Source: an uncultured bacterium
Lineage (GTDB): Bacteria > Bdellovibrionota > JACOXK01 > 2-02-FULL-40-11
DNA length: 64,000 bases
Assembly (NCBI GenBank): GCA_964392415.1
Contig: CAYMPL010000001.1
Span: forward strand, 6,200-70,199
Reading direction: 5' to 3'
Below, piece by piece: positions 2,993 through 63,935 of this stretch (within the stretch, counting starts at the first letter, position 1; the number at the start of each line of letters is the position of its first letter). The translations under genes and the position numbers were made by a program. Under the pieces are notes generated by a model. It worked only from the letters and a program-made list of their open reading frames with translations, did not search any database and was not told the origin of the DNA.

Positions 2993-3751
2993 TTATCTCC
3001 TCTTCCCAAAGATTCCTTCCCCGACTCTTACTTGCGTCGCCCCCTCTTCAATCGCAATTTTAAAATCATGTGTCATTCCCATTGAAAGCTCCCTCAGCGA
3101 AAGATTTGGGAATGCTTTCTGAGTTTCCAATAATAATTCCCTCATCTTCCTAAAATAAGGGCGTGATTTTTCGGGGTCTTTAAAATAGGGGGGGATGGCC
3201 ATGAGCCCCTGGATATCCAAATAGGTCATTCTGGGCGGAGATTGTTCGAGAATGTCATTCTGAGGCTGAGGCTTGAAAATGTCATTCTGAGGCTCGAAGA
3301 GCCGAAGAATCTCATTTAAAAATGGAATAAGATTTTTAGGAAAAAGCCCTGATTTTGTTGTTTCTTCGCCAATATTGATTTGAATCAGAACTGGCAGACG
3401 GCGATTTTTCTTTTGCAGCTCCTGTTGAAGCTTTGTGGATAACTTTAGGCTATCAAGCGTTTGAATTTCTGAAATGGTATCCGTCAAATATTTGACTTTG
3501 TTCGTCTGAAGGTGGCCAATAAAAATCCATTTTGCGGCATTTCCCAGAATTTCCCATTTTTTGAGGAATTCCTGGACATGGTTTTCACCGAGATAGCTGA
3601 TTCCCGCATCCATCGCCAATTTGATCTTTTCGATCGGTTGTAATTTGGAAACAGCAATCAGCCGGATATCTTGAGGATTTTTTCCGATTTTTTTCGCGGT
3701 TTCAGAGATAATTTGTCGGACAGAGGCGATATTTTCTTTTATATCATTCAC
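2993..3751 (-). CDS. yggS: YggS-family pyridoxal-phosphate homeostasis protein (alanine racemase-fold); carries an in-frame insertion of the dispersed repeat element
   Basis: N-terminus [10 protein letters not shown]...GENHVQE matches YggS/PLPHP; the internal [17 protein letters not shown] stretch is encoded by repeat copies at 3254-3314. Confidence 0.85.
3254..3314. repeat. Dispersed repeat family copy (double head + hairpin core + tail), in frame inside yggS
   Basis: GTCATTCTGAGGCTGAGGCTTGAAAATGTCATTCTGAGGCTCGAAGAGCCGAAGAATCTCA. Confidence 0.8.
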
Positions 3752-3855
3752 AAGCAGGTAACAAACTATATTGCATTACCATTTGAAATAGCACGCGAAA
3801 ACTGTTTGACATTTCCTTGCGTTTTCCTGTAGCAGGAAAACTTGGACGGGACAAT

Positions 3856-3928
3856 GCCCCGGTAGCTCAGTCGGTAGAGCAGCGCCCTGAAAAGGCGCGT
3901 GTCGGCAGTTCGATTCTGCCCTGGGGCA
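3856..3928 (+). tRNA. tRNA-Phe (anticodon GAA)
   Basis: Cloverleaf read by eye: acceptor GCCCCGG/CTGGGGC, D arm TAGCTCAGTCGGTAGAGCA, anticodon stem GCGCC / loop CTGAAAA / GGCGC, T arm GGCAGTTCGATTCTGCC, discriminator A; no encoded CCA. Confidence 0.9.
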
Positions 3929-3936
3929 TTCCACCA

Positions 3937-5175
3937 TTAAAATTGACAGCTGATATCATAATTCAAATTATCAAATGCTATTCCATCACCAGAAGAATTT
4001 GTAATTTCAATCTTGCGAACAGAATTTAGAGTGTTTTGAATATTTGTATTTTGTCCCGATCCATTCTGTGGGGCGATATTTATTTCTTCAAGTAAGCTAT
4101 TGTTTTTGTCGTAAAGACGCACAATGGCGTTGCTCTCTACATCGATGAGAGAAAACCTGACATTAGAAGCATCAGCTAAAAAATTTATAATTAAAGGGTC
4201 GTCTTGATTTATACCCTGATTATTTGCCCCAAGAGCAAATGGTTGAGAAACAGGTTTTGCATCGCCTGATTGGCCTGGCCATTGTTCATTGATTAGCAAA
4301 GGATCTCCACGAGGGGATGAAAAAACAACGCCCTGTTTTTCATACTTCATCGTAATTTTCTGCCCTAGGATATTTTCGGTATCATCAAAAAATATGTTTT
4401 GGCGACAGAGAGCGGACTGATATTCTTCTTCTGGTACCTCTGGTGCAGGAGGTAATGTACCAGCACGTTGCTGCTCCAAAAGAAGAACCACTCTTTCTAA
4501 TTTTGAGACGATTTTTTCAAGTTTATGAATGATTCGCTCTGATGCATTCTTTTCTGCTCTCCAGAGCCCCTTTTTCTTTCCCCTGGCCTCTTCTTGTAAA
4601 GCTAAAAATCGATCCCGATATTTTACATTGGGAGGAATTGTCATAATGGAGCCATACCCCTCTTCTAAAATTTTGGCGTTCACAAATGTGCCGTCTTCCA
4701 GGAAAACATATGCAAGCAATCTTCCATAGCGATCTCTTTGATCAACATCAAATTCAAGACGGACTCTTTTGCCTTCGAGAAGATTTTTTGTAAATTCATA
4801 TGCTTCTTGCCCCAGCTCTTGAATTATCCTGATATCTTGTCCAGTTCTTCTGGCATCTTCATATAATTTGGAACTCTGAGATATTTCAGGGGTATCAATA
4901 CCAATAAATCTTACCTTTTCTCCGTTGGAGAGAACTATGGTGTCACCATCAATGACTCTTTCAACCATAAAAAATCCTGTTTCTGAAGGCGAAAGAGATT
5001 GCGTTTCAGGAGATGGTGGCGTCTGAATTTGTGGTTTATGGCAATGTCTTTCGCCTGTTCGGCTATCCCTGTGACAGCCGTCTTTGTCCGTTCGGCCTGA
5101 ATGGCAAATGGCCTCATTATTCAGAAAAAAAATAAAAATAAAAGCTCCCATGATTTTCCCAATGATCGATTTCAT
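3937..5175 (-). CDS. Secreted protein with central thermonuclease (SNase/micrococcal-nuclease-like) domain, His/Cys-rich N-region and uncharacterized C-terminal domain
   Basis: Signal peptide MKSIIGKIMGAFIFIFFL; SNase motifs VIDGDTIVL...VRFIGIDTPE...YGRLLAYVF. Confidence 0.65.
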   Translation of the reverse strand: MKSIIGKIMGAFIFIFFLNNEAICHSGRTDKDGCHRDSRTGERHCHKPQIQTPPSPETQSLSPSETGFFMVERVIDGDTIVLSNGEKVRFIGIDTPEISQSSKLYEDARRTGQDIRIIQELGQEAYEFTKNLLEGKRVRLEFDVDQRDRYGRLLAYVFLEDGTFVNAKILEEGYGSIMTIPPNVKYRDRFLALQEEARGKKKGLWRAEKNASERIIHKLEKIVSKLERVVLLLEQQRAGTLPPAPEVPEEEYQSALCRQNIFFDDTENILGQKITMKYEKQGVVFSSPRGDPLLINEQWPGQSGDAKPVSQPFALGANNQGINQDDPLIINFLADASNVRFSLIDVESNAIVRLYDKNNSLLEEINIAPQNGSGQNTNIQNTLNSVRKIEITNSSGDGIAFDNLNYDISCQF

Positions 5176-5543
5176 CTTTTTTCCCTCACTTCATTTAAAA
5201 TTAAAAGTTTACTCTCGAGTTGCTCCAATCTTTCTTCAAGCGCTGACAATCTCTCTTCGATCGTAAGATTTTGATAGCCAGTATCTATATCCTCTTCGGT
5301 TGATATCGAAGTCCCAGCTTTTTCAAGCTTGAATATTTTTTCTTCGAAATTGGTCACAAGGGGTTCAAATTGAGATGTAATGATGCTCTCAAGTTCTGCC
5401 TCACTGGTCGCTGGAGTAGGCTGAAAACTTTCTGGCGCAGTCTTTGAGGGGGCATCCCCTCCACATGAGAGAATCATTAAAATGGCGAAGAGGCTCATAC
5501 CTATTTGCCATAATTGTTTATTTATATAAAAAAAGATGTTCAT
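5172..5543 (-). CDS. Hypothetical lipoprotein with C-terminal coiled coil
   Basis: Signal peptide with LSCGG lipobox-like sequence; heptad-rich tail LEERLEQLESKLL; 4-nt overlap with the downstream nuclease gene. Confidence 0.4.
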   Translation of the reverse strand: MNIFFYINKQLWQIGMSLFAILMILSCGGDAPSKTAPESFQPTPATSEAELESIITSQFEPLVTNFEEKIFKLEKAGTSISTEEDIDTGYQNLTIEERLSALEERLEQLESKLLILNEVREKR

Positions 5544-5710
5544 TCTCCACCAACGTTCAGCTGATCCAAATAATGTTAATTATATGTCGAATTTTAATTT
5601 AGGTCAAACACACATTTAGAGATTATTTTTCCATTTTCAAAATAAATATAAGTGAACCCAAAACGACTGTCTCACTCTAGATTGGCACAGAGGGGGCTAT
5701 CAAACGATAT

Positions 5711-6052
5711 TTATTTACTCAAATTTTTTAATAACTTTTTTTCTTCAGCGGTAGGGAGTCCATACGCATCAAAGATACAAAGAAGATGAAGAATTATCCC
5801 TGGAATAATAAACAAAAAATAACCACCAATTACAAAGAAGAACCACAAAACACACCGAATAAATTTTCCACAATAAAGATGGCCAAAGCCAGGGAAAAAC
5901 ACACTTATTAATGCAGCTATTCCACCACTAGGTTTTACAGTTGCAAGTATAGTTTTAGATTTTTCATCTTTCAGGGGATGGCCACATGAAGGACATGACG
6001 TTGCCTTATCAGAAATTTCCTTGTTACATTCAGGACACTTTATTAGAGGCAT
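5711..6052 (-). CDS. Zinc-ribbon domain membrane protein (hypothetical)
   Basis: CPECN...CPSCGH zinc ribbon followed by two hydrophobic helices. Confidence 0.45.
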   Translation of the reverse strand: MPLIKCPECNKEISDKATSCPSCGHPLKDEKSKTILATVKPSGGIAALISVFFPGFGHLYCGKFIRCVLWFFFVIGGYFLFIIPGIILHLLCIFDAYGLPTAEEKKLLKNLSK

Positions 6053-6070
6053 TTTTTTAAAAATCCTTTT

Positions 6071-6463
6071 TTATTCATAAACAATGGCTGAGCCCGTGAG
6101 TTTTGTATGCCAGGAATTTTTAGATTGGATTTGAATGTCAATCACTGCATCGGCACCAGCTTTTCTTCCTTCTTCTTTGAGAAGCGGTACAACATCTTCA
6201 TAATCAACAGTCAAAAAAGCCATAGGAACAAATAAAAGAGCCCAAGACCAAAGCCAATTTCCTCCATTATCTTTCTGAGCGGTAATAACGCCCAGTTCTT
6301 TATATTTTACCTCATGGGGTGCAGTTCTATAAATTTCTACTTCTTGTCCTGGATTTTTTCTGGGATGCGGTCTTCCTGATGGCATAAATTTCGAAGAAGT
6401 AGCGCAAGAGAAAAGAAATAGAAGTATAGCACCTAAAATAATAAGTTTTCTTGGTTTCATCAT
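6071..6463 (-). CDS. Hypothetical lipoprotein (start trimmed to the MMKPRKLIILGAILLFLFSC signal peptide)
   Basis: RBS AGGAGGCT immediately upstream of the ATGATG at 6458-6463 (complement); lipobox LFSC; the longer ORF call to 6643 overlaps the HTH gene. Confidence 0.5.
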   Translation of the reverse strand: MMKPRKLIILGAILLFLFSCATSSKFMPSGRPHPRKNPGQEVEIYRTAPHEVKYKELGVITAQKDNGGNWLWSWALLFVPMAFLTVDYEDVVPLLKEEGRKAGADAVIDIQIQSKNSWHTKLTGSAIVYE

Positions 6464-6556
6464 AGCCTCCTTTATTCTGTTATATGGCTTATCGGTAAGT
6501 AAACACGAATCTTTAGAGACGTTATATTTATAGATTCGTGTCTTTATAATTGCAGT

Positions 6557-6769
6557 ATGGCTTTCGATATCTACCTTCGAAAGGTTGCAAATAATATACA
6601 AAGGGCAAGAAAAAAAGCAGGATTCACTCAAGAAAAGATGCAAGATTTTGGTTTTAATTATCGCTATTATCAGAAAATCGAAGGTGGCCAGGTAAATCTT
6701 ACATTGAAAACACTTTGGTTAATCGCCAAGGCTTTAAAATCATCTATAACCAATCTGACTCGTATTTAA
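6557..6769 (+). CDS. XRE-family helix-turn-helix transcriptional regulator
   Basis: 70 aa; QEKMQDFGFNYRYYQKIEGG matches the Cro/C1-type HTH pattern. Confidence 0.6.
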   Translation: MAFDIYLRKVANNIQRARKKAGFTQEKMQDFGFNYRYYQKIEGGQVNLTLKTLWLIAKALKSSITNLTRI

Positions 6770-6786
6770 TTTTGTGCTTGTTCGAT

Positions 6787-6830
6787 CTGAAAAGGCGCGT
6801 GTCGGCAGTTCGATTCTGCCCTGGGGCATT
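6787..6830 (+). repeat. Partial duplicate of the tRNA-Phe 3' half (attR-like direct repeat)
   Basis: Exact 44-nt match to 3887-3930. Confidence 0.85.
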
Positions 6831-6881
6831 CTGATTTCAGGCACTTAGCCGCAGACAAGAGCTAAAAACCATTTTCTCATC

Positions 6882-7139
6882 TTATCTGTACACCTCCCTC
6901 CTATGGCCTATTTTCACAATCAGAACGAGCAGAATCTTGTCAAGTATCTGGTAGATGACACGGTAATCTCCTATGCGAACGCGATAGAGATTTTCTTCCC
7001 CGGAAAGTTTCTCAACGCCATGGGGCCGTGGATTTTGGGCCAGATCGTCTATCTTCCTCTCGATTCTGTTTTGGACAGGGATCGGAAGACTATTAAGTTG
7101 TTTCCGGGCTTTTTTATCGATCTTTATTGTGTAAATCAT
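6882..7139 (-). CDS. RelE/ParE-family toxin
   Basis: 85 aa, ...LYRVRIGDYRVIY...HRREVYR RelE/ParE signature; lies immediately downstream of the antitoxin gene. Confidence 0.85.
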   Translation of the reverse strand: MIYTIKIDKKARKQLNSLPIPVQNRIERKIDDLAQNPRPHGVEKLSGEENLYRVRIGDYRVIYQILDKILLVLIVKIGHRREVYR

Positions 7140-7148
7140 CGGATCCGA

Positions 7149-7394
7149 TCACCTGCGCCTCTCTTTTTTGACAGTCTCCCAGGGAATGAATTCGTTCCTT
7201 TTCAAGGCTTCTCTGGCATCCTCAAGGTCTATTCTGTTCTCGATCTCCTCCAGAAGCTCCAGGTCCTCTATGGGGACAATAGCCACGACATTTTTCCCCT
7301 TTCTGGTGATAACGATCCTCTCCTTGGCGTAGACTGTCCTATTGACGATCTCCGCGAATTCCTTTCTTGCCTCCACAGATGTATATTTAGCCAT
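7149..7394 (-). CDS. Phd/YefM-family antitoxin
   Basis: 81 aa, EARKEFAEIVNRTVYAKERIVITRKGKNVVAIVPIEDLE matches the Phd/YefM fold; 9-nt spacing to the toxin gene. Confidence 0.85.
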   Translation of the reverse strand: MAKYTSVEARKEFAEIVNRTVYAKERIVITRKGKNVVAIVPIEDLELLEEIENRIDLEDAREALKRNEFIPWETVKKERRR

Positions 7395-7501
7395 ATATTT
7401 ACCTCCTATATATAATATACATAATAGTCATTATTATGTCAATAGACATAAATATGCGATGAAGCATGTTAATGCGCTATTTCGAAGAAATGGCGCGTCG
7501 C

Positions 7502-8947
7502 CTAATGCCTGACCACACTCTCATACCGGTTTAATTTATTATAAAGGGTTTTAATGGTGATACCAAGGGCGGTGGCGGTTTTGGTTTTGTTTCCTTCGTA
7601 AAAAAAAAGGGTTCTTAGAATATGCGTTTTTTCTATTTCTTCCAAAGCGAGAATTGGCCCATGCGTCTCAGTTTCCATTTTTGTCGGCGATGTAAATTTA
7701 ATATGGTTTCTGATATCTTCAGTTGTTATCTCATCTCCTTCAGAGAGAATTTTTAACCGTTCCACGGTATTTTGTAATTCACGGATATTTCCAGGCCAGT
7801 CATATTGTTTGAGAAGTTCAATGGCATCCGGATGAATCTTTTTACCTTTGATCCTGCTCCAGGGATCAGGCTCCAGGAAATAATGAAGCAGTGGCTCAAT
7901 GTCTTCGATGCGTTTCCGAAGAGGGGGGACACGGAGCGTGATGGTATTGAGTCTGAAAAAAAGATCTTCCCGAAATTGTCCTTCTTTGACCTCTTTTTCC
8001 AGATCCTTGTTGGTTGCTGATATAATTCTCACATCGACTTTAAGAGGGGTTTTTCCACCCACGCGGTAAAATTCCCCATCCTGCAAAAAACGTAAGAGTT
8101 TTGCCTGAATCCCCTTTCCGGTCTCAGCAATTTCATCCATAAAAAGGGTTCCCCCATGTGCCGTTTCAACCAATCCTTTTTTGAGCATGTGTGCCCCCGT
8201 GAACGCCCCTTTTTCATGTCCGAAAAGCTCACTTTTTAAAAGATGTTCATTCAGTGTTCCACAGTTAATAGCAACGTAAGGCCCCTTTGCCCTTGAACTT
8301 TTTTCATGCAGACGCCTGGCAATAAGTTCTTTTCCGGTTCCACTTTCCCCTTGAATGAGAATGGTGACATGGGTCGGCGCGATTCGATCAATCATATTAA
8401 GCAATTGTTTGAGGGATTTGCTTTGCCCGATGATTTTGGTGGAGGGGATTTTTTTTCCGATGAGCGATTTTAGATTTTTATTCTCTTCTTCGAGATAGAC
8501 ATGCCGGTGTGTCAAAATGGCGATAGCGCACATATCGGCAATGGTTTCGAGAACCATTCGATCACCTTCGTCAAACGCAGCGGGACGGTCGCTTTCAACA
8601 TGGATAACGCCCAAAATCTTCCCCTGACACGCAATTTGCGCGGAGAGCTGTGATTGGGGTTCCGAGGGGGCTTTACCGACCTTTGCTTTTAAGATAGCCT
8701 CTTTTCTATCGTCATCGCGGATCCAGAGGGAGAGATGATAAAAATTGAATTCTTTCTGAACGAGGTTAATAATTTCATGATAGAGTTCATCGATGTTGGG
8801 CGCGGATAAAATTTTGCGGCTGACTTCATTCACCATTGAGAGATGCGAGGCAAAAAGATTTTTTTGGCTCAATCGCTTATCCTTGGTTCGTTTGAGATTC
8901 AGCAGGGGATTATCGAAGTGAAAAACAAATTGCAAGAAATTTTTCAT
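7502..8947 (-). CDS. Sigma-54-dependent transcriptional activator (GAF sensor + AAA+ sigma-54 interaction + Fis-type HTH)
   Basis: GESGTGKE Walker A, GAFTGA sigma-54 contact motif, C-terminal HTH; N-terminal GAF-like domain. Confidence 0.9.
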   Translation of the reverse strand: MKNFLQFVFHFDNPLLNLKRTKDKRLSQKNLFASHLSMVNEVSRKILSAPNIDELYHEIINLVQKEFNFYHLSLWIRDDDRKEAILKAKVGKAPSEPQSQLSAQIACQGKILGVIHVESDRPAAFDEGDRMVLETIADMCAIAILTHRHVYLEEENKNLKSLIGKKIPSTKIIGQSKSLKQLLNMIDRIAPTHVTILIQGESGTGKELIARRLHEKSSRAKGPYVAINCGTLNEHLLKSELFGHEKGAFTGAHMLKKGLVETAHGGTLFMDEIAETGKGIQAKLLRFLQDGEFYRVGGKTPLKVDVRIISATNKDLEKEVKEGQFREDLFFRLNTITLRVPPLRKRIEDIEPLLHYFLEPDPWSRIKGKKIHPDAIELLKQYDWPGNIRELQNTVERLKILSEGDEITTEDIRNHIKFTSPTKMETETHGPILALEEIEKTHILRTLFFYEGNKTKTATALGITIKTLYNKLNRYESVVRH

Positions 8948-9583
8948 TGGATTTTTATCGCGCTGATTCCGCCGTTGTTGTTTGGGATCTTATATCTCTA
9001 TCGATCGACGTGGCGGCTGACGGTTTTGGATGAGAATTTAAAACCTATGAGACGGAATCGATTTAAAAATGTTCTCTACGCGCATTGGCATGAAGATATT
9101 CCTGTTTTAAGCCTTAAATACGGGAGTTATGCAAACGTCTGTACGATGGCAAGCCAAAGTCGGGATGGGGAGGTGATCGCCCGCGTCTTAAAGTGGTTTG
9201 GGTATGAAGTTTCCAGAGGTTCCTCTCATCGCGGGGGGGGGGCGGCCCTTCTTCAGATGCAGAAGGCGTATCAGCGCGGCAAAAACCTTGCGCTGGCTGT
9301 CGATGGGCCCCGGGGGCCGCGCCATGAAGTGAAAGCGGGTATTGTGGCTCTTGTTGAAAAAGGGGGGATGCCAGTTGTCATTGGGGTTGCCAATTCAAAA
9401 TATAAATTTGTTTTCCGAAAAAGCTGGGATCGAATGTGGTTTCCATTCCCCTTTTCACCTGTGGTTGCGATTTTTTCGGATCCGATTCGGTTTGAAACCG
9501 ATCCTTCATTTGAAGAGCGGTGTTTGCGCATTGAGCGGCGCCTGCGCGATCTTAAAGAGAAGACTATAACTTACTATTCTTAA
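8930..9583 (+). CDS. DUF374-like / lysophospholipid-acyltransferase-like membrane protein (start uncertain; the track ORF begins at 8843, TTG at 8930 proposed)
   Basis: TM helix IFIALIPPLLFGILYLY then a conserved block; contains a (G)10 tract at 9233-9242; the longer call would overlap the divergent activator gene by about 100 nt. Confidence 0.45.
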   Translation: MQEIFHWIFIALIPPLLFGILYLYRSTWRLTVLDENLKPMRRNRFKNVLYAHWHEDIPVLSLKYGSYANVCTMASQSRDGEVIARVLKWFGYEVSRGSSHRGGGAALLQMQKAYQRGKNLALAVDGPRGPRHEVKAGIVALVEKGGMPVVIGVANSKYKFVFRKSWDRMWFPFPFSPVVAIFSDPIRFETDPSFEERCLRIERRLRDLKEKTITYYS

Positions 9584-9627
9584 ATAAGCCGATTAAAGAT
9601 TTCCCACAAACTTTCGAAAAGAGAGAT

Positions 9628-11409
9628 GTGGGGAGAGTCACTCAAATCAAAGCGGCGATTCATTTAGCTATTTTTTCACTTCTGGGGGGATCCTTCGTCG
9701 CTTCGCTCCTCTGGATGACACCCTTGCTCCTCTGGATGACACCATTTGATGCGGCGGCTGACCCAAAATTTCCTTTTTTTCAACAGGCTTCTTTTTCACT
9801 CACCAGAGTCGAGCGGGACAAAACTGAAAACAGACTTTCGCGTATGACGCCTGAAGAAAAAATCGGTCAGCTTCTTATGGTAGGGATCAGAGGGAAGCGA
9901 CTCACCCCTGGAACCGAGCGGCTTATTAAAAAATTAAAACTGGGGGGTGTTATTTTTTACGCTCATAATATTGATGATCCGGTTCAGCTTCGCCAGTTTA
10001 CTTCCGCGATTCAGCATGTGGCATCCTTGGATCACAGGATTCCACTTTTTATATCGGTCGACCAGGAAGGGGGATCGGTTGCGCGGATTCGGAAAGGGGT
10101 TTACTCTTTTCCTCCGCCAATGGCGATTGGAGCCACAGGTTCGCTCCAGCTTTCGTATATGGTCGGCAAAATGATGGCGCTCGACCTCTCTGCGATGGGG
10201 ATTAACATGAATTTGGCCCCTGTTCTCGACGTCAATACGGAACAAGAAAATCAGCTGATCGGAATCCGGTCATTCGGGGGGGATCCTGAACTCGTGGCTC
10301 AAATGGGAATGTGGTACATTGAAGGACTTCAATCGCGGGGAGTTGTTGCAACTGCGAAACACTTTCCGGGGCATGGAAATACCGCGGTCGATTCTCATTA
10401 TGCGATTCCCGCTATTCAGACCGGGCTTTCTGATCTTGAAAAATTTCACCTTCTCCCTTTTAAAAAAGCGATGGAAAATGGTCTCGATGCCCTTATGACA
10501 GCCCATCTTTCGGTGCCAGCGATCGACCCTTCAGGTTTGCCAGCAACATTTTCCTACAATCTTCTGACCGAAGTGGTTCGTAAAAAAATGAACTATCAGG
10601 GGCTCATCGTGACAGATGATCTCGAGATGAAGTCGATTCGTAACAGATATGGAGTGGGGGAAGCGGCGCTCAAAGCCATTTTGGCAGGATCAGATGTCGT
10701 GATGGTTAGTTGGACGGATGAGAAAAAAACAGAGGTTTTTAACGCACTTCTAACTGCCTATCGGGAAGGGAAGCTGACAGAAGAGAGGCTGAACGAATCG
10801 GTTCGACGGATTCTTAAATTGAAATATCAGCGGGGTTTTTTTGATGCTGTTCGGGAGCCTGCATCCCTAAATCCAAAATGGCTGACCCATTCCGCGCACC
10901 AAAAGCTTCTTAGCCAAATTGCTGCGAAGGCGATAACGATGGTTTTCAACAAAGGGGTGCTCCCGTTAAAGGAAGAGGATCCTCGAAAGGTGCTTTTGGC
11001 GACCCCATTCAATCTTTTTTACGAGGAGCTTAAATTTTATCATGAGGATCTGAGTTCTTTAAAAATTCCAAATCGTCCTACCATTTCAGAAATTGAGACA
11101 ATTGTTTCAAACATTACTGAACTGAAAAATGAAATCGATCTGCTCATGATAGGCCTGACACACAGGTCACAACTTCCACTGGTTCAAAGGCTTTCCCAAA
11201 ATATAAAAAAACCGATTGTAGTTATTTCTTTTGAGTCCCCCTACCTCATTCATGAGATAAAGAAAATTTCAGAGATTTCTGCCTTCCTCTGCAGCTATGG
11301 CACCCAGCCGGAGCTTGTCCGCGCAACTGCTGAGTCCCTGGTCGGAATCATTCATCCCACAGGGAAAAGTCCCGTCTTGAGCATGGAAACGGCATCGATT
11401 AACAAATAA
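9628..11409 (+). CDS. nagZ: Beta-N-acetylhexosaminidase, glycoside hydrolase family 3 (NagZ-like) with signal peptide
   Basis: KIGQLLMVGI, ISVDQEGG, KHFPGHG, LIVTDDLEM GH3 motifs. Confidence 0.85.
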   Translation: MGRVTQIKAAIHLAIFSLLGGSFVASLLWMTPLLLWMTPFDAAADPKFPFFQQASFSLTRVERDKTENRLSRMTPEEKIGQLLMVGIRGKRLTPGTERLIKKLKLGGVIFYAHNIDDPVQLRQFTSAIQHVASLDHRIPLFISVDQEGGSVARIRKGVYSFPPPMAIGATGSLQLSYMVGKMMALDLSAMGINMNLAPVLDVNTEQENQLIGIRSFGGDPELVAQMGMWYIEGLQSRGVVATAKHFPGHGNTAVDSHYAIPAIQTGLSDLEKFHLLPFKKAMENGLDALMTAHLSVPAIDPSGLPATFSYNLLTEVVRKKMNYQGLIVTDDLEMKSIRNRYGVGEAALKAILAGSDVVMVSWTDEKKTEVFNALLTAYREGKLTEERLNESVRRILKLKYQRGFFDAVREPASLNPKWLTHSAHQKLLSQIAAKAITMVFNKGVLPLKEEDPRKVLLATPFNLFYEELKFYHEDLSSLKIPNRPTISEIETIVSNITELKNEIDLLMIGLTHRSQLPLVQRLSQNIKKPIVVISFESPYLIHEIKKISEISAFLCSYGTQPELVRATAESLVGIIHPTGKSPVLSMETASINK

Positions 11410-22899: not shown

Positions 22900-22999
22900 T
22901 GGCGGAAGTGTATGGGAATCGAACCCACCACAGACATAGAGACTATGTCTGTCACTGGATTTGAAGTCCAGGAAGTACACCAGAAACTTAAACACTTCC
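22900..22999 (-). tRNA. selC: tRNA-Sec (selenocysteine tRNA, anticodon UCA), 100 nt including encoded CCA
   Basis: Reverse complement reads GGAAGTGT (8-bp acceptor stem pairing with ACACTTCC), anticodon stem-loop CTGGA-CTTCAAA-TCCAG (UCA), long variable arm TGACAGACATAGTCTCTATGTCTG, T arm GGGTTCGATTCCC, discriminator G, CCA. Confidence 0.85.
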
Positions 23000-62723: not shown

Positions 62724-62903
62724 ATGATTAAACAGGATGCCCGGCTTGTGGATAAACGGGTTATCAAAAGACATATCGCACATAATCTTCTTACAGAGAA
62801 GGAATTCAAGTCTTATCTTGCTTCGCTGAAGGATTCTTCTTCCTCAGCCGAAGAGATTGATATTAACGAAGATGATGCACGTAAGATTTTAGATAAATCT
62901 TAG
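62724..62903 (+). CDS. Small hypothetical protein (59 aa), not in the ORF track because it is under 60 aa
   Basis: RBS GGGGG 7 nt before the ATG; MIKQDARLVDKRVIKRH...; overlaps the selD 3' end by 15 nt. Confidence 0.25.
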   Translation: MIKQDARLVDKRVIKRHIAHNLLTEKEFKSYLASLKDSSSSAEEIDINEDDARKILDKS

Positions 62904-63935
62904 AATAGCCCGATCACTTCTAAAGACCGAACCAATCCGTCGGGATTCCTTTAAACCGGCCGCGTGAAATTTTTTAAGGATCGGGAGGGCTTCCTCCTCC
63001 GGCAAGCTGATGAAAAGCCCCCCTGATGTCTGGGGATCAAAGAAGAGCGTCTCCCATTCTTTTGAAAACGTTCTTTCAAACCAGATGGCATCCTTCACAT
63101 AGAGTCTATTCGTCCGGTCCGCGCGTGTAAGCACCCCTTTTTTTGCAAAATAGAGCGCTTCTTCATAGTACGGCAGGCAATCACTTTCGATCAAGAGCCC
63201 TTTGCTGCTTGCCTGAGCCAACTGAAAGGCATGTCCTGTCAGACCAAAACCGGTGATGTCGGTACAGGCATGGATGGTAAATCCCGCCATGATTTCGGCT
63301 GCTATTTTATTCAATTGGGTCATCCAATGGCAGACATATTCGATCGATTCTTTTGACGCCTTTTTCTTTTTGATCGCTGTGGTAAGAATTCCTGTTCCGA
63401 GCGGTTTTGTGAGAATCAGCGCGTCTCCCTCCTGGGCTCCTTTATTCGTATAAATTTTTTTTGGATGAATCAGCCCTGTCACAGCCATCCCATATTTGAG
63501 CTCAGGATCGGAAACGGTGTGTCCCCCCAGTACCACGACGCCTGCTTCCCAGGCTTTATCCTGCCCCCCAGAGAGAATTTTCTGAAATACTTCGATGGGG
63601 AGGCTGGAAGGAAAGGCGGCAACATTGAGCGCGGTTAAAGGATGTCCCCCCATCGCGTAGACATCGCTCAGCGCATTTGCCGCGGCAATTTGTCCATAAA
63701 TGTAGGGATCATCCACAATGGGCGTAAAAAAATCGACCGTCTGCACGAGGGCTATTTCATCCGAAATTTTATAAACGCCGGCATCGTCGGCCGTCTCCGC
63801 CCCAACCAGAAGGTTTGGATCCGAAGGTGTTTTTAGATGAGCAATAATCTGCCGCAACTCCGTTGGGCTGAATTTAGAGGCTCAACCGGCGCATTTCACT
63901 TTTTCAGTGAGGCGCCAAATATCTTCTTTCGTCAT
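62889..63935 (-). CDS. selD: Selenide, water dikinase (selenophosphate synthetase) with an in-frame UGA selenocysteine codon at complement(63882..63884); N-terminus extended relative to the ORF track
   Basis: Reverse translation MTKEDIWRLTEKVKCAG-[TGA]-ASKFSPTELRQIIAHL...DPNLLVG aligns with E. coli SelD SIRLTQYSHGAGC(17)GCKISPKVLETIL...DPNLLVG, placing TGA at the catalytic Cys17 position. Confidence 0.85.

What the first reader, a model, noticed from the sequence alone, without database searches (positions are those of the whole stretch)
3856..6830. tRNA-Phe with a 44-bp direct repeat of its 3' half bracketing an integrase-less islet
Exact duplication of the tRNA 3' half (3887-3930 equals 6787-6830) is the classic scar of site-specific integration into a tRNA gene. 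The 2.9-kb interval carries only minus-strand accessory genes: a secreted thermonuclease, a coiled-coil lipoprotein, a zinc-ribbon membrane protein, a lipoprotein and an XRE regulator. There is no integrase, so it is a decayed island, a satellite mobilised in trans, or part of a larger rearranged element.
Basis: seen in the sequence. Interest (0 to 1): 0.6.

Follow-up and report, generated by a model that had tools for sequence, protein, structure and literature searches.

The report
Integrase-less islet in a tRNA-Phe hotspot
A 2.9-kb piece of foreign DNA carrying a secreted nuclease sits in a tRNA-Phe gene between two exact copies of the tRNA's 3' half and has no integrase of its own. It is a clean but ordinary example of a stranded or hitch-hiking genomic islet at an integration hotspot.

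Summary
tRNA-Phe lies at 3856-3928. Its 3' half is repeated exactly: 3887-3931 equals 6787-6831, which is 45 nt rather than 44.

The repeat starts at the first base of the anticodon loop and ends 3 nt past the discriminator. That is the standard anticodon-loop attachment site of tyrosine integrases.

A related metagenomic contig (L045) has the same tRNA directly abutting the sigma-54 activator gene. Window 3930-7502 is therefore inserted DNA.

The insert has two parts: the SNase islet (3932-6786) and an older ParE/Phd islet (6832-7486). The older islet ends in a decayed third att remnant (7487-7502).

The SNase islet has the lowest GC content and the most deviant tetranucleotide usage in the window. 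I found no recombinase anywhere in the 64 kb.

The SNase/lipoprotein/XRE cassette is rare, with four instances in 5.8 billion proteins. It lies next to tRNA-Phe ends in two or three relatives. In one contig it sits inside an element that carries an integrase and lies next to tRNA-Val.

Islet and flank divergences do not agree, which points to horizontal exchange.

Verdict: a CIME-like integrase-less islet in a tandem array. It is a new member of a known kind and of modest interest.

The parts
2993..3751 (-). YggS-family PLP protein. It marks the conserved chromosomal backbone on the left of the site.
   Evidence: Pfam Ala_racemase_N. Orthologues lie next to tRNA-Phe in L002, L003, L046, L048, L049 and L050.
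3856..3928 (+). Intact tRNA-Phe(GAA). It is the target gene, and its 3' half is the attL copy.
   Evidence: ARAGORN. Rfam RF00005, 68.1 bits. It is 100% identical to the tRNA-Phe of L002, L045 and L050.
3887..3931 (+). attL copy of the 45-nt repeat. It runs from the first base of the anticodon loop (loop CTGAAAA, 3887-3893) to 3 nt past the discriminator A3928.
   Evidence: The position within the tRNA was read from the sequence and from ARAGORN's anticodon position.
3937..5175 (-). Secreted staphylococcal-nuclease-family protein of 412 aa. It has an N-terminal hydrophobic leader, an SNase domain (residues 87-206) and a separate C-terminal domain (residues 247-412).
   Evidence: Pfam SNase 2.4e-23. 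The C-terminal domain is 63% identical to the N-terminal domain of an unrelated F5/F8-type-C protein, P0005. Homologues at 81% and 80% identity are in L038 and L044.
5172..5543 (-). Small probable lipoprotein with a helical C-terminus. Its stop overlaps the SNase start by 4 nt, so the two are probably co-translated.
   Evidence: ORF list. Only 4 relatives exist in 5.8 billion proteins, and each lies just upstream of an SNase homologue.
5711..6052 (-). Zinc-ribbon protein with C-terminal membrane segments.
   Evidence: Pfam Zn_Ribbon_1 9e-08 and weak DUF6677.
6071..6463 (-). Small probable lipoprotein of 130 aa. It starts at the ATG at 6463, behind a GGAGG ribosome-binding site.
   Evidence: No Pfam match. 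The 3' part of the gene is 90% identical in L044.
6503..6541 (.). Inverted repeat of 13 nt arms with a 13-nt spacer, in the divergent promoter region. It is a candidate operator for the XRE protein.
   Evidence: It is not conserved in L038.
6557..6769 (+). XRE-family HTH regulator of 70 aa, divergent from the four cargo genes.
   Evidence: Pfam HTH_3 9.5e-08. About 90% identical to the XRE of L038. Resembles restriction-modification 'control proteins' in PADLOC.
6787..6831 (+). attR: the displaced tRNA-Phe 3' half, 45/45 identical to attL.
   Evidence: Independently assembled in L033 and L034.
6832..6850 (+). 19-nt 'trailer', TGATTTCAGGCACTTAGCC. In relative L002 it directly follows the intact tRNA-Phe (18/19 identical).
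6882..7394 (-). ParE toxin (6882-7139) and Phd/YefM antitoxin (7149-7394). They are the cargo of an older islet that spans 6832-7486.
   Evidence: Pfam 1.8e-13 and 4.8e-13. Both genes are absent from the empty site in L045. Their GC3 values of 0.50 and 0.62 differ from the SNase islet.
7487..7502 (+). Degenerate third att remnant, GAAATGGCGCGTCGCC, abutting the stop codon of the sigma-54 activator.
   Evidence: The pattern GAAAWGGCGCGT occurs only at attL, attR and here, against 0.03 expected. In a local-alignment null, 1.1% of random segments score as high.
7502..8947 (-). Sigma-54-dependent activator. It marks the conserved backbone on the right of the site.
   Evidence: Pfam. The orthologue in L045 (76% aa) ends 2 nt from tRNA-Phe. 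An orthologue is also present in L003.

Best explanation
The interval 3932-6786 is a small, horizontally acquired genomic islet. A tyrosine-integrase-type site-specific recombination inserted it into the anticodon loop of tRNA-Phe. An attachment site on the incoming DNA carried the 3' 45 nt of the tRNA. This rebuilt the gene as attL (3887-3931) and pushed the original 3' half downstream as attR (6787-6831).

It is the younger of two islets stacked at this site. The older islet carries ParE/Phd (6832-7486) and ends in a decayed att remnant (7487-7502). Together the two fill a gap that is empty in a relative.

The islet encodes no recombinase, so it cannot move on its own. In the terms used for streptococcal elements it is CIME-like: att sites retained, integration genes absent.

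My preferred sub-reading, at about 0.5-0.55 given the above, is that it reached this genome already without an integrase. It would have been carried by an integrase supplied in trans or in cis by an element like the one in L038, or by homologous recombination through the conserved flanks. The alternative is that it lost an integrase module here.

Its cargo is an operon for a secreted staphylococcal-type nuclease and three small envelope proteins, with a divergent XRE regulator. The likely role is degradation of extracellular DNA.

Shown: the repeat and its register in the tRNA, the empty site, the compositional foreignness, the absence of recombinases in 64 kb, the recurrence of the cassette, and the tandem layout. 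Inferred: the integrase mechanism, the order of the two insertions, trans or cis mobilisation, and the cargo function.
For: Repeat register. The repeat runs from the first base of the anticodon loop to 3 nt past the discriminator. This matches the anticodon-centred attP class, which accounts for 2083 of 3919 Islander islands (PMC4383910).

Empty site. L045 has a tRNA-Phe 100% identical to the window's. It is followed after 'TC' by the stop codon of the sigma-54 activator orthologue, then DUF374 and GH3 in the window's order.

Composition. The islet is 37.2% GC, against 43.7 +/- 2.25% for all other 2855-nt windows, whose minimum is 38.5%. GC3 is 0.23-0.36, against 0.45 +/- 0.04 for background genes. 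Its tetranucleotide distance exceeds that of every background window.

No recombinase. phmmer with the L038 integrase, replication and excisionase-like proteins against all six-frame ORFs gave nothing, and a box-II motif scan gave nothing. Pfam scans of 30 ORFs also found none.

Tandem array. A third att remnant lies at 7487-7502. L043 shows the same layout: SNase cassette, 26-nt tRNA-Phe fragment, BrnT/BrnA, then a second longer fragment. The two L043 fragments have different T-stem sequences, so they are not copies of one local tRNA.

Recurrence. The cassette proteins are very rare. The SNase stop lies 7 nt from the att end in the window and about 20 nt from a tRNA-Phe 3' end in L044. In L038 the cassette is 85% identical at the nucleotide level, and the homology ends within 15-18 nt of the window's att copies. 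There it sits in an element with integrase, HTH_17 and DUF3854 genes next to tRNA-Val.

Incongruence. Flanks are 88-91% identical among relatives. The L044 islet is only 78% identical, while the L002 SNase N-terminus is 95.9% identical.

Recency. attR is 45/45 identical although it is not part of a functional gene.
Against: No integrase that recognises this site was found, in the window or in any fetched locus. No excised circle or exact pre-insertion junction (tRNA-TTC-trailer-ParE) was seen.

The empty-site contig L045 is only 3 kb long and stops 12 nt upstream of the tRNA, so its left-hand synteny with YggS is not shown. It is also a more distant relative (sigma-54 activator 76% aa).

L002 does not fit simply. 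There the intact tRNA is followed by the 19-nt trailer and then by an SNase gene with a different C-terminal domain. At least one rearrangement is therefore not explained by simple integration.

In L038 the cassette has no att-like sequence at its ends. Cassette movement can therefore also occur by other kinds of recombination.

That L044 and L048 come from one genome is inferred only from their shared sequencing run. The third att remnant is short, with only 12 contiguous informative bases.
Confidence: 0.72

Rival explanations
1. In-situ decay. A larger L038-like element (tRNA, integrase, excisionase, replication genes, then SNase through XRE, then attR) integrated into this genome's tRNA-Phe. 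It later lost about 5 kb of integrase and replication genes by deletion. What remains is an immobile remnant.
For: L038 shows the cassette in exactly that kind of element, with the integrase next to the tRNA and the cassette distal to it, in the same relative orientation. Decay of integrated elements into att-flanked remnants is the accepted route to CIMEs (PMC5704250).
Against: The deletion would have had to run from the last base of the att identity block to within 5 nt of the SNase stop codon. L044 shows the same arrangement without an integrase and with the SNase gene against the tRNA. Its islet is 78% identical, while the presumed flanks are 91% identical. The loss therefore probably predates arrival in these genomes. 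attR is undecayed. The L038 element uses tRNA-Val and extends beyond the XRE gene, so it is not a direct precursor.
Confidence: 0.3
2. Active integrase-less satellite. The 2.9-kb unit (2855 bp plus one 45-nt att) still excises and integrates today, using an integrase encoded elsewhere in the genome or by a co-resident element.
For: Both att copies are perfect. The cassette recurs at tRNA-Phe in several relatives, with divergence incongruent with the flanks. A cassette-bearing element with an integrase exists in the same kind of samples.
Against: There is no attP junction, no empty-site variant in the three assemblies of the same population and no candidate integrase. The islet shows no recognisable arm-type repeats. 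The conserved 19-nt left-end motif seen on the neighbouring islet and in L002 is missing from this islet's left end.
Confidence: 0.2
3. No site-specific recombination was involved. The 45-nt duplicate arose by local duplication, transposition or mis-assembly, and the genes between are ordinary chromosomal genes.
For: There is no integrase. Short-read contigs of relatives break at the tRNA, so repeats do confuse assembly here.
Against: Both junctions are spanned by independent contigs. The repeat is in register with the anticodon loop. An empty site exists in L045. The islet is a compositional outlier. There are no terminal inverted repeats and no transposase. To my knowledge, 45 nt is far longer than the target-site duplication of any transposon.
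Confidence: 0.03

Closest known systems
CIMEs (cis-mobilizable elements), for example the ICESt1/ICESt3-related CIMEs of Streptococcus thermophilus, as defined in PMC5704250 and PMC6323972
   Same: The islet is flanked by intact attL and attR. It has no integration or transfer genes. It sits in tandem with another small decayed element at the 3' end of a target gene. The accretion model predicts exactly this stacked layout: integration, decay, then a new integration next to the remnant.
   Different: It occurs in an uncultivated groundwater bacterium labelled 'Deltaproteobacteria', not a Firmicute. At 2.9 kb it is very small. No conjugative partner is known. The only relative that carries an integrase (L038) has a DUF3854-type replication gene but no visible conjugation genes. 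Cis-mobilisation is untested.
tDNA genomic islands as catalogued by Islander (PMC4383910)
   Same: There is a regenerated tRNA plus a displaced 3' fragment in direct orientation. The attachment site is centred on the anticodon loop. Tandem arrays at one tDNA are a recognised feature.
   Different: Islander requires an integrase gene inside each island, and this islet has none. It would therefore be filtered out. It is also well below usual island size.
The integrative element in contig L038 (Logan SRR22387804), next to tRNA-Val(TAC)
   Same: It shares the SNase, coiled-coil lipoprotein and XRE cassette at about 85% nucleotide identity, in the same gene order and orientation relative to the tRNA.
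   Different: It has a tyrosine integrase (Int_N plus Phage_integrase), an HTH_17 excisionase-like gene and a DUF3854 replication-type gene. It uses tRNA-Val. The two middle cargo genes are replaced by others. The cassette ends carry no tRNA-Phe fragment.
[quoted passage not shown]
   Same: A small-RNA gene in a groundwater bacterium serves as a recurrent integration site for cargo-bearing islands.
   Different: The target gene, cargo and island size are all different. I did not read the paper beyond its abstract.

Membership tests
CIME (cis-mobilizable element) | Bounded by attL and attR recombination sites | tested here: met
   Exact 45-nt direct repeats at 3887-3931 and 6787-6831, in register with the tRNA anticodon loop.
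CIME (cis-mobilizable element) | Lacks its own integration/excision and transfer genes | tested here: met
   Pfam on all five islet proteins shows no recombinase or relaxase. phmmer and motif scans of all six-frame ORFs found none.
CIME (cis-mobilizable element) | Derived by decay from an ICE or IME | tested here: inconclusive
   A cassette-bearing relative with integrase and replication genes exists (L038). It shows no conjugation or mobilisation genes, and descent from it is not demonstrated.
CIME (cis-mobilizable element) | Can be mobilised in cis after accretion with an incoming element | not testable with these tools
   This needs mating or excision assays, or read-level junction data.
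Islander-type tDNA genomic island | Intact tDNA plus a cognate displaced 3' fragment in the same orientation | tested here: met
Islander-type tDNA genomic island | Crossover at a recognised sublocation (anticodon loop, T loop or T/acceptor junction) | tested here: met
   The repeat starts at the first base of the anticodon loop CTGAAAA. The class definition is from PMC4383910.
Islander-type tDNA genomic island | Integrase gene inside the island | tested here: not met
   None was found elsewhere in the 64-kb window either.
Prophage or phage satellite | Integrase, replication, packaging or capsid-related genes; relatives among viral contigs | tested here: not met
   No such Pfam domains. No relatives of the SNase protein in IMG/VR, and only one distant (27%) integrase match for the L038 integrase.
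Transposon, IS or MITE | Terminal inverted repeats, a short target-site duplication, and a transposase (or derivation from one) | tested here: not met
   No inverted repeats pair the two ends. The duplication is 45 nt of tRNA. No transposase was found.
Anti-phage defence island (PADLOC systems) | Proteins matching a described defence system as a set | tested here: not met
   There is only a generic SNase-domain match to a candidate model (C3a212) and HTH matches to 'control protein' models. No complete system was found.

The most novel reading that the evidence does not exclude
The islet represents a family of minimal (about 2.9 kb) integrative hitch-hikers in uncultivated groundwater bacteria. 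They keep complete anticodon-loop att sites and no genes for their own movement. Integrases of small L038-like integrative replicons move them between tRNA-Phe sites of related species. This would be a non-conjugative counterpart of CIMEs that spreads a secreted-nuclease operon.
Probability: 0.2. Interest if true: 0.5.

Novelty: new member of a known kind. Interest (0 to 1): 0.3.

Why it matters
The locus is a compact, well-delimited example of how tRNA genes accumulate stacks of small integrase-less islets. Pipelines such as Islander discard these islets because they demand an integrase. It also shows this process in a poorly known groundwater lineage.

The comparison set assembled here is unusually complete for metagenomic data. 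It includes an empty site, five close relatives with different contents, a tandem array in a second sample, and a relative of the cassette that carries an integrase. It could seed a read-level test of whether such islets still move.

The finding does not change current understanding. Integrase-less att-flanked remnants and their accretion are already described.

Tried and rejected
- Exact-sequence look-ups of the SNase protein found no record. The cluster look-up gave no names or accessions.
- The full 45-mer has no exact match in JGI metagenome contigs. Shortening it to 40 nt gave the two useful loci, L045 and L046.
- IMG/VR scans with the SNase protein, the L038 integrase and the odd L031 junction gave nothing useful.
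- A search for a second tRNA-Val fragment that would delimit the L038 element found none in the 16.8 kb held.
- PADLOC gave only generic domain matches.
- Rfam found nothing in 3000-8000 apart from the tRNA. The terminator scan found none.
- phmmer with the L038 integrase, replication, excisionase-like and 250-aa ORF proteins against every window ORF gave no hit. I therefore reject the idea that a rearranged integrase module lies elsewhere in the window (Pfam).
- I considered the trailer (6832-6850) as native chromosomal sequence. I now doubt this, because the empty site in L045 lacks it. It may be the conserved left end of the older islet.
- I considered strictly vertical inheritance of the islet. 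I reject it as the sole explanation because islet and flank identities disagree in both directions.
Full report
**1. Observation**

ARAGORN finds tRNA-Phe(GAA) at 3855-3929. Rfam places it at 3856-3928 with 68 bits.

The repeat finder and the DNA search show an exact 45-nt direct repeat, 3887-3931 = 6787-6831. There are no other copies in the window, even with 3 mismatches, and 0.00 are expected by chance. blastn-short with the whole tRNA found no other long fragment.

From the sequence, the anticodon stem is GCGCC (3882-3886) pairing with GGCGC (3894-3898). The loop CTGAAAA is 3887-3893. The repeat therefore starts at the first base of the anticodon loop. It ends 3 nt after the discriminator A3928, and no CCA is encoded. 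The bases just outside the repeat differ: C3886 against T6786, and C3932 against T6832.

Three independent short-read assemblies of Hainich groundwater samples reproduce the structure.
- L001 covers the M23 peptidase gene, YggS, the tRNA and the SNase 3' part.
- L034 and L035 cover the islet genes, and L034 runs through attR into the trailer.
- L033 runs from the XRE 3' end through attR to ParE/Phd.

**2. Content**

- 3937-5175 (-): SNase-domain protein of 412 aa.
- 5172-5543 (-): probable lipoprotein of 123 aa. Its end overlaps the SNase start.
- 5711-6052 (-): zinc-ribbon membrane protein.
- 6071-6463 (-): probable lipoprotein of 130 aa.
- 6557-6769 (+): 70-aa HTH_3 regulator.

To the right of attR lie ParE (6882-7139), Phd/YefM (7149-7394) and a sigma-54 activator (7502-8947). 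To the left lie YggS (2993-3751) and an M23 peptidase gene.

No recombinase is present in the islet or anywhere in the window. phmmer with the L038 integrase, replication and excisionase-like proteins against all six-frame ORFs of at least 80 aa gave no hit at E <= 10. A box-II motif scan gave none. Pfam on 30 ORFs shows only housekeeping or unrelated families.

**3. The DNA is inserted**

Searching JGI metagenome contigs with a 40-nt piece of the tRNA 3' half returned L045 and L046.

In L045 the tRNA-Phe is 100% identical to the window's. After two bases (TC) comes the stop codon of the sigma-54 activator orthologue (76% aa identity). DUF374 and GH3 genes follow in the window's order. blastn aligns window 3855-3929 and 7503-10366 to L045, and nothing in between. 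Window 3930-7502 (3.57 kb) is therefore absent from that relative.

A more distant relative, L003 (YggS 51%), has the order YggS, tRNA-Phe, a porin-like gene and a repeat protein, then the sigma-54 activator.

Composition agrees with a foreign origin.
- The islet is 37.2% GC, against 43.7 +/- 2.25% for all other 2855-nt windows. None is as low, and the minimum is 38.5%.
- GC3 of its genes is 0.23-0.36, against 0.45 +/- 0.04 for 46 background genes.
- Its tetranucleotide distance from the rest of the window exceeds that of every background window.

**4. Two stacked islets**

The ParE/Phd segment has ordinary to high GC (GC3 0.50 and 0.62). It is also missing from L045.

Directly against the sigma-54 stop codon lies GAAATGGCGCGTCGCC (7487-7502). 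This resembles the start of the att block, GAAAAGGCGCGTGTCGGC. The pattern GAAAWGGCGCGT occurs only at attL, attR and here, with 0.03 expected. In a local-alignment null, 1.1% of random segments reach the same score. I read this as the decayed attR of an earlier insertion that brought ParE/Phd. The SNase islet then entered the regenerated tRNA. This order is an inference.

L043, from a different sequencing run, has the same architecture: SNase, cc-lipoprotein, a lipoprotein, an XRE gene, a 26-nt tRNA-Phe 3' fragment, BrnT/BrnA, and a second longer tRNA-Phe fragment at the contig end. The proximal fragment has the window-type T-stem (CTGCC). The distal fragment has GCCAG, which pairs with the CTGGC seen at the tRNA end in L044. 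The two fragments therefore have different origins. This is expected if each incoming element brings its own copy of the tRNA 3' part.

**5. A variable hotspot in close relatives**

Contigs with flanks 88-91% identical to the window carry different DNA after tRNA-Phe.
- L002 has the tRNA, then TTC and the 19-nt trailer that follows the window's attR (18/19 identical). Next come 78 nt and an SNase gene. Its N-terminal part is 95.9% identical to the window's, but its C-terminal domain is different.
- L050 has the tRNA, TTC, and then an unrelated HTH_3 gene.
- L048 and L049 end inside the tRNA near the anticodon region. A repeated 3' half would break short-read assembly at that point.
- L044 comes from the same run as L048. 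It begins with a tRNA-Phe 3' end, and about 20 nt later comes the stop of an SNase gene. It is collinear with the window islet from 3907 to 6264, but at only 78% identity across SNase and the cc-lipoprotein.

The islet is therefore more diverged than the flanks in one comparison and less diverged in another. Purely vertical inheritance does not explain this. It points to exchange of islets between lineages. All att-type copies diverge immediately after GGGGCA(TTC) (alignment).

**6. The cassette and a relative that carries an integrase**

The cc-lipoprotein has only four relatives among 5.8 billion clustered proteins. All four sit upstream of an SNase homologue.

In L038, a 20-kb Logan contig, the cassette is about 85% identical to window 3947-5602 and 6432-6768. 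The two middle genes are replaced by others. There the cassette lies inside an element that also carries:
- an HTH_3 gene;
- a DUF3854 protein of 676 aa, a replication-type gene;
- an HTH_17 excisionase-like protein;
- a tyrosine integrase (Int_N plus Phage_integrase), whose gene ends 15 nt from the 3' end of tRNA-Val(TAC).

No tRNA-Phe fragment flanks the cassette in L038. No second tRNA-Val fragment lies in the 16.8 kb available. Homology with the window stops within 15-18 nt of the window's att copies. The att-bounded unit in the window thus corresponds closely to a module that other elements carry as cargo.

**7. Mechanism and alternatives**

The register of the repeat matches the anticodon-centred class of tDNA attachment sites. 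This class covers 2083 of 3919 Islander islands (PMC4383910). The sublocation idea is also summarised in the preprint 10.1101/2020.11.02.365908.

An att-flanked element without integration genes, stacked with another remnant, fits the published definition of a CIME. It also fits the integration, decay and accretion model (PMC5704250; PMC6323972).

I put about 0.9 on origin by site-specific integration. Given that origin, I favour arrival as an integrase-less unit (about 0.5-0.55) over deletion of an integrase module in this genome (about 0.3-0.35). Three points support this.
- L044 shows the same arrangement, with the SNase gene against the tRNA, at a divergence greater than that of its presumed flanks.
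- attR is undecayed at 45/45.
- An in-situ deletion would have had to end exactly at the att boundary and within 5 nt of a stop codon.

Whether transfer used an integrase in trans or in cis, or homologous recombination through the conserved flanks, cannot be decided here. No helper integrase, circle junction or exact pre-insertion site was seen. I reject an artefactual or non-recombinational origin (section 3).

**8. Cargo**

The SNase protein has a hydrophobic N-terminal leader, a canonical SNase domain (residues 87-206) and a C-terminal domain (residues 247-412). The C-terminal domain is 63% identical to the N-terminal domain of P0005, an otherwise unrelated F5/F8-type-C protein. L002 carries a different C-terminal domain on a nearly identical nuclease. 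The C-terminus therefore looks like an exchangeable targeting or binding module.

PADLOC gives only a generic SNase-domain hit and HTH 'control protein' hits. A sigma-70-like promoter (TTGACC-17-TATAAT, 5607-5579, minus strand) precedes the cc-lipoprotein/SNase pair. A 13-nt inverted repeat (6503-6541) lies between the divergent XRE gene and the cargo genes.

That the product is an extracellular DNase under XRE control is an inference from these features.

**9. Unexplained**

(a) In L002 the trailer lies next to the intact tRNA and is followed by an SNase gene. The same 19 nt begin the ParE/Phd islet in the window, and L044's left end weakly resembles them. They may be a conserved element terminus, but the history linking these arrangements is unclear.

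(b) Contig L031 ends with 26 nt of unrelated sequence joined to only the last 13 nt of the att block plus the trailer. That 26-mer occurs nowhere else in the data I could search. It could be a strain with a different insertion or a chimeric contig end.

**10. Verdict**

This is an integrase-less, CIME-like islet in a tandem array at a tRNA-Phe hotspot. It is a new member of a known kind, and I score its interest at 0.3.

Noticed in passing
window 3227-3308 (inside YggS); also 15140, 16609, 16663, 16679, 31912, 31934, 47692, 59336: A dispersed short repeat, GTCATYCTGAGS...GAAGAATCTC. The core TCATYCTGAGS occurs 10 times, against 0.21 expected. It lies mostly at gene ends. Two tandem copies sit in frame inside YggS, as an insertion of about 80 nt that is absent from all four close relatives (YggS 252 aa against 229-236 aa). 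It looks REP- or MITE-like.
   Followed up: partly
L031 5037-5063 (contig end; corresponds to window about 6819): An alternative junction in the same sample. 26 nt of unknown sequence (ACACATACAATGTAACGCGTGAAATA) are joined to CCCTGGGGCATTC plus the trailer. It could be a coexisting strain with a different insertion using a shorter att, or a chimeric contig end.
   Followed up: partly
window 6832-6850; L002 1240-1258: The 19-nt trailer TGATTTCAGRCACTTAGCC follows attR in the window and the intact tRNA-Phe in L002. It is absent from the empty site in L045. It may be a conserved islet terminus rather than chromosomal sequence.
   Followed up: partly
window 3937-4435 (SNase residues 247-412); L002 94-1161; P0005: The C-terminal domain of the nuclease is a shuffled module. 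It is 63% identical to the N-terminal domain of an F5/F8-type-C protein from a JGI metagenome. In L002 it is replaced by a different domain on a 96%-identical nuclease core.
   Followed up: partly
window 7502-8947: The sigma-54 activator lacks about 42 residues of its N-terminal GAF region relative to the L045 orthologue (gap in the BLASTP alignment).
   Followed up: no
window 6503-6541: An inverted repeat, ACACGAATCTTTA / TATAGATTCGTGT, lies in the divergent promoter region between the XRE gene and the cargo genes. It is not conserved in L038.
   Followed up: partly
L043 141-651: A BrnT/BrnA toxin-antitoxin pair forms its own mini-islet between two tRNA-Phe fragments. This parallels ParE/Phd in the window. 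Toxin-antitoxin pairs seem to be recurrent residents of this hotspot.
   Followed up: partly
window 22900-22999 (-) and 62889-63857 (-): A tRNA-Sec gene is present. An ORF near the window end was not examined. The organism presumably uses selenocysteine.
   Followed up: no
L038 3956-7327: Two transposase genes (DDE_3, and Transposase_29/DDE_Tnp_1) and a large AAA_11/AAA_12 helicase-like gene lie beyond the cassette in the tRNA-Val element. Its far boundary was not found.
   Followed up: no
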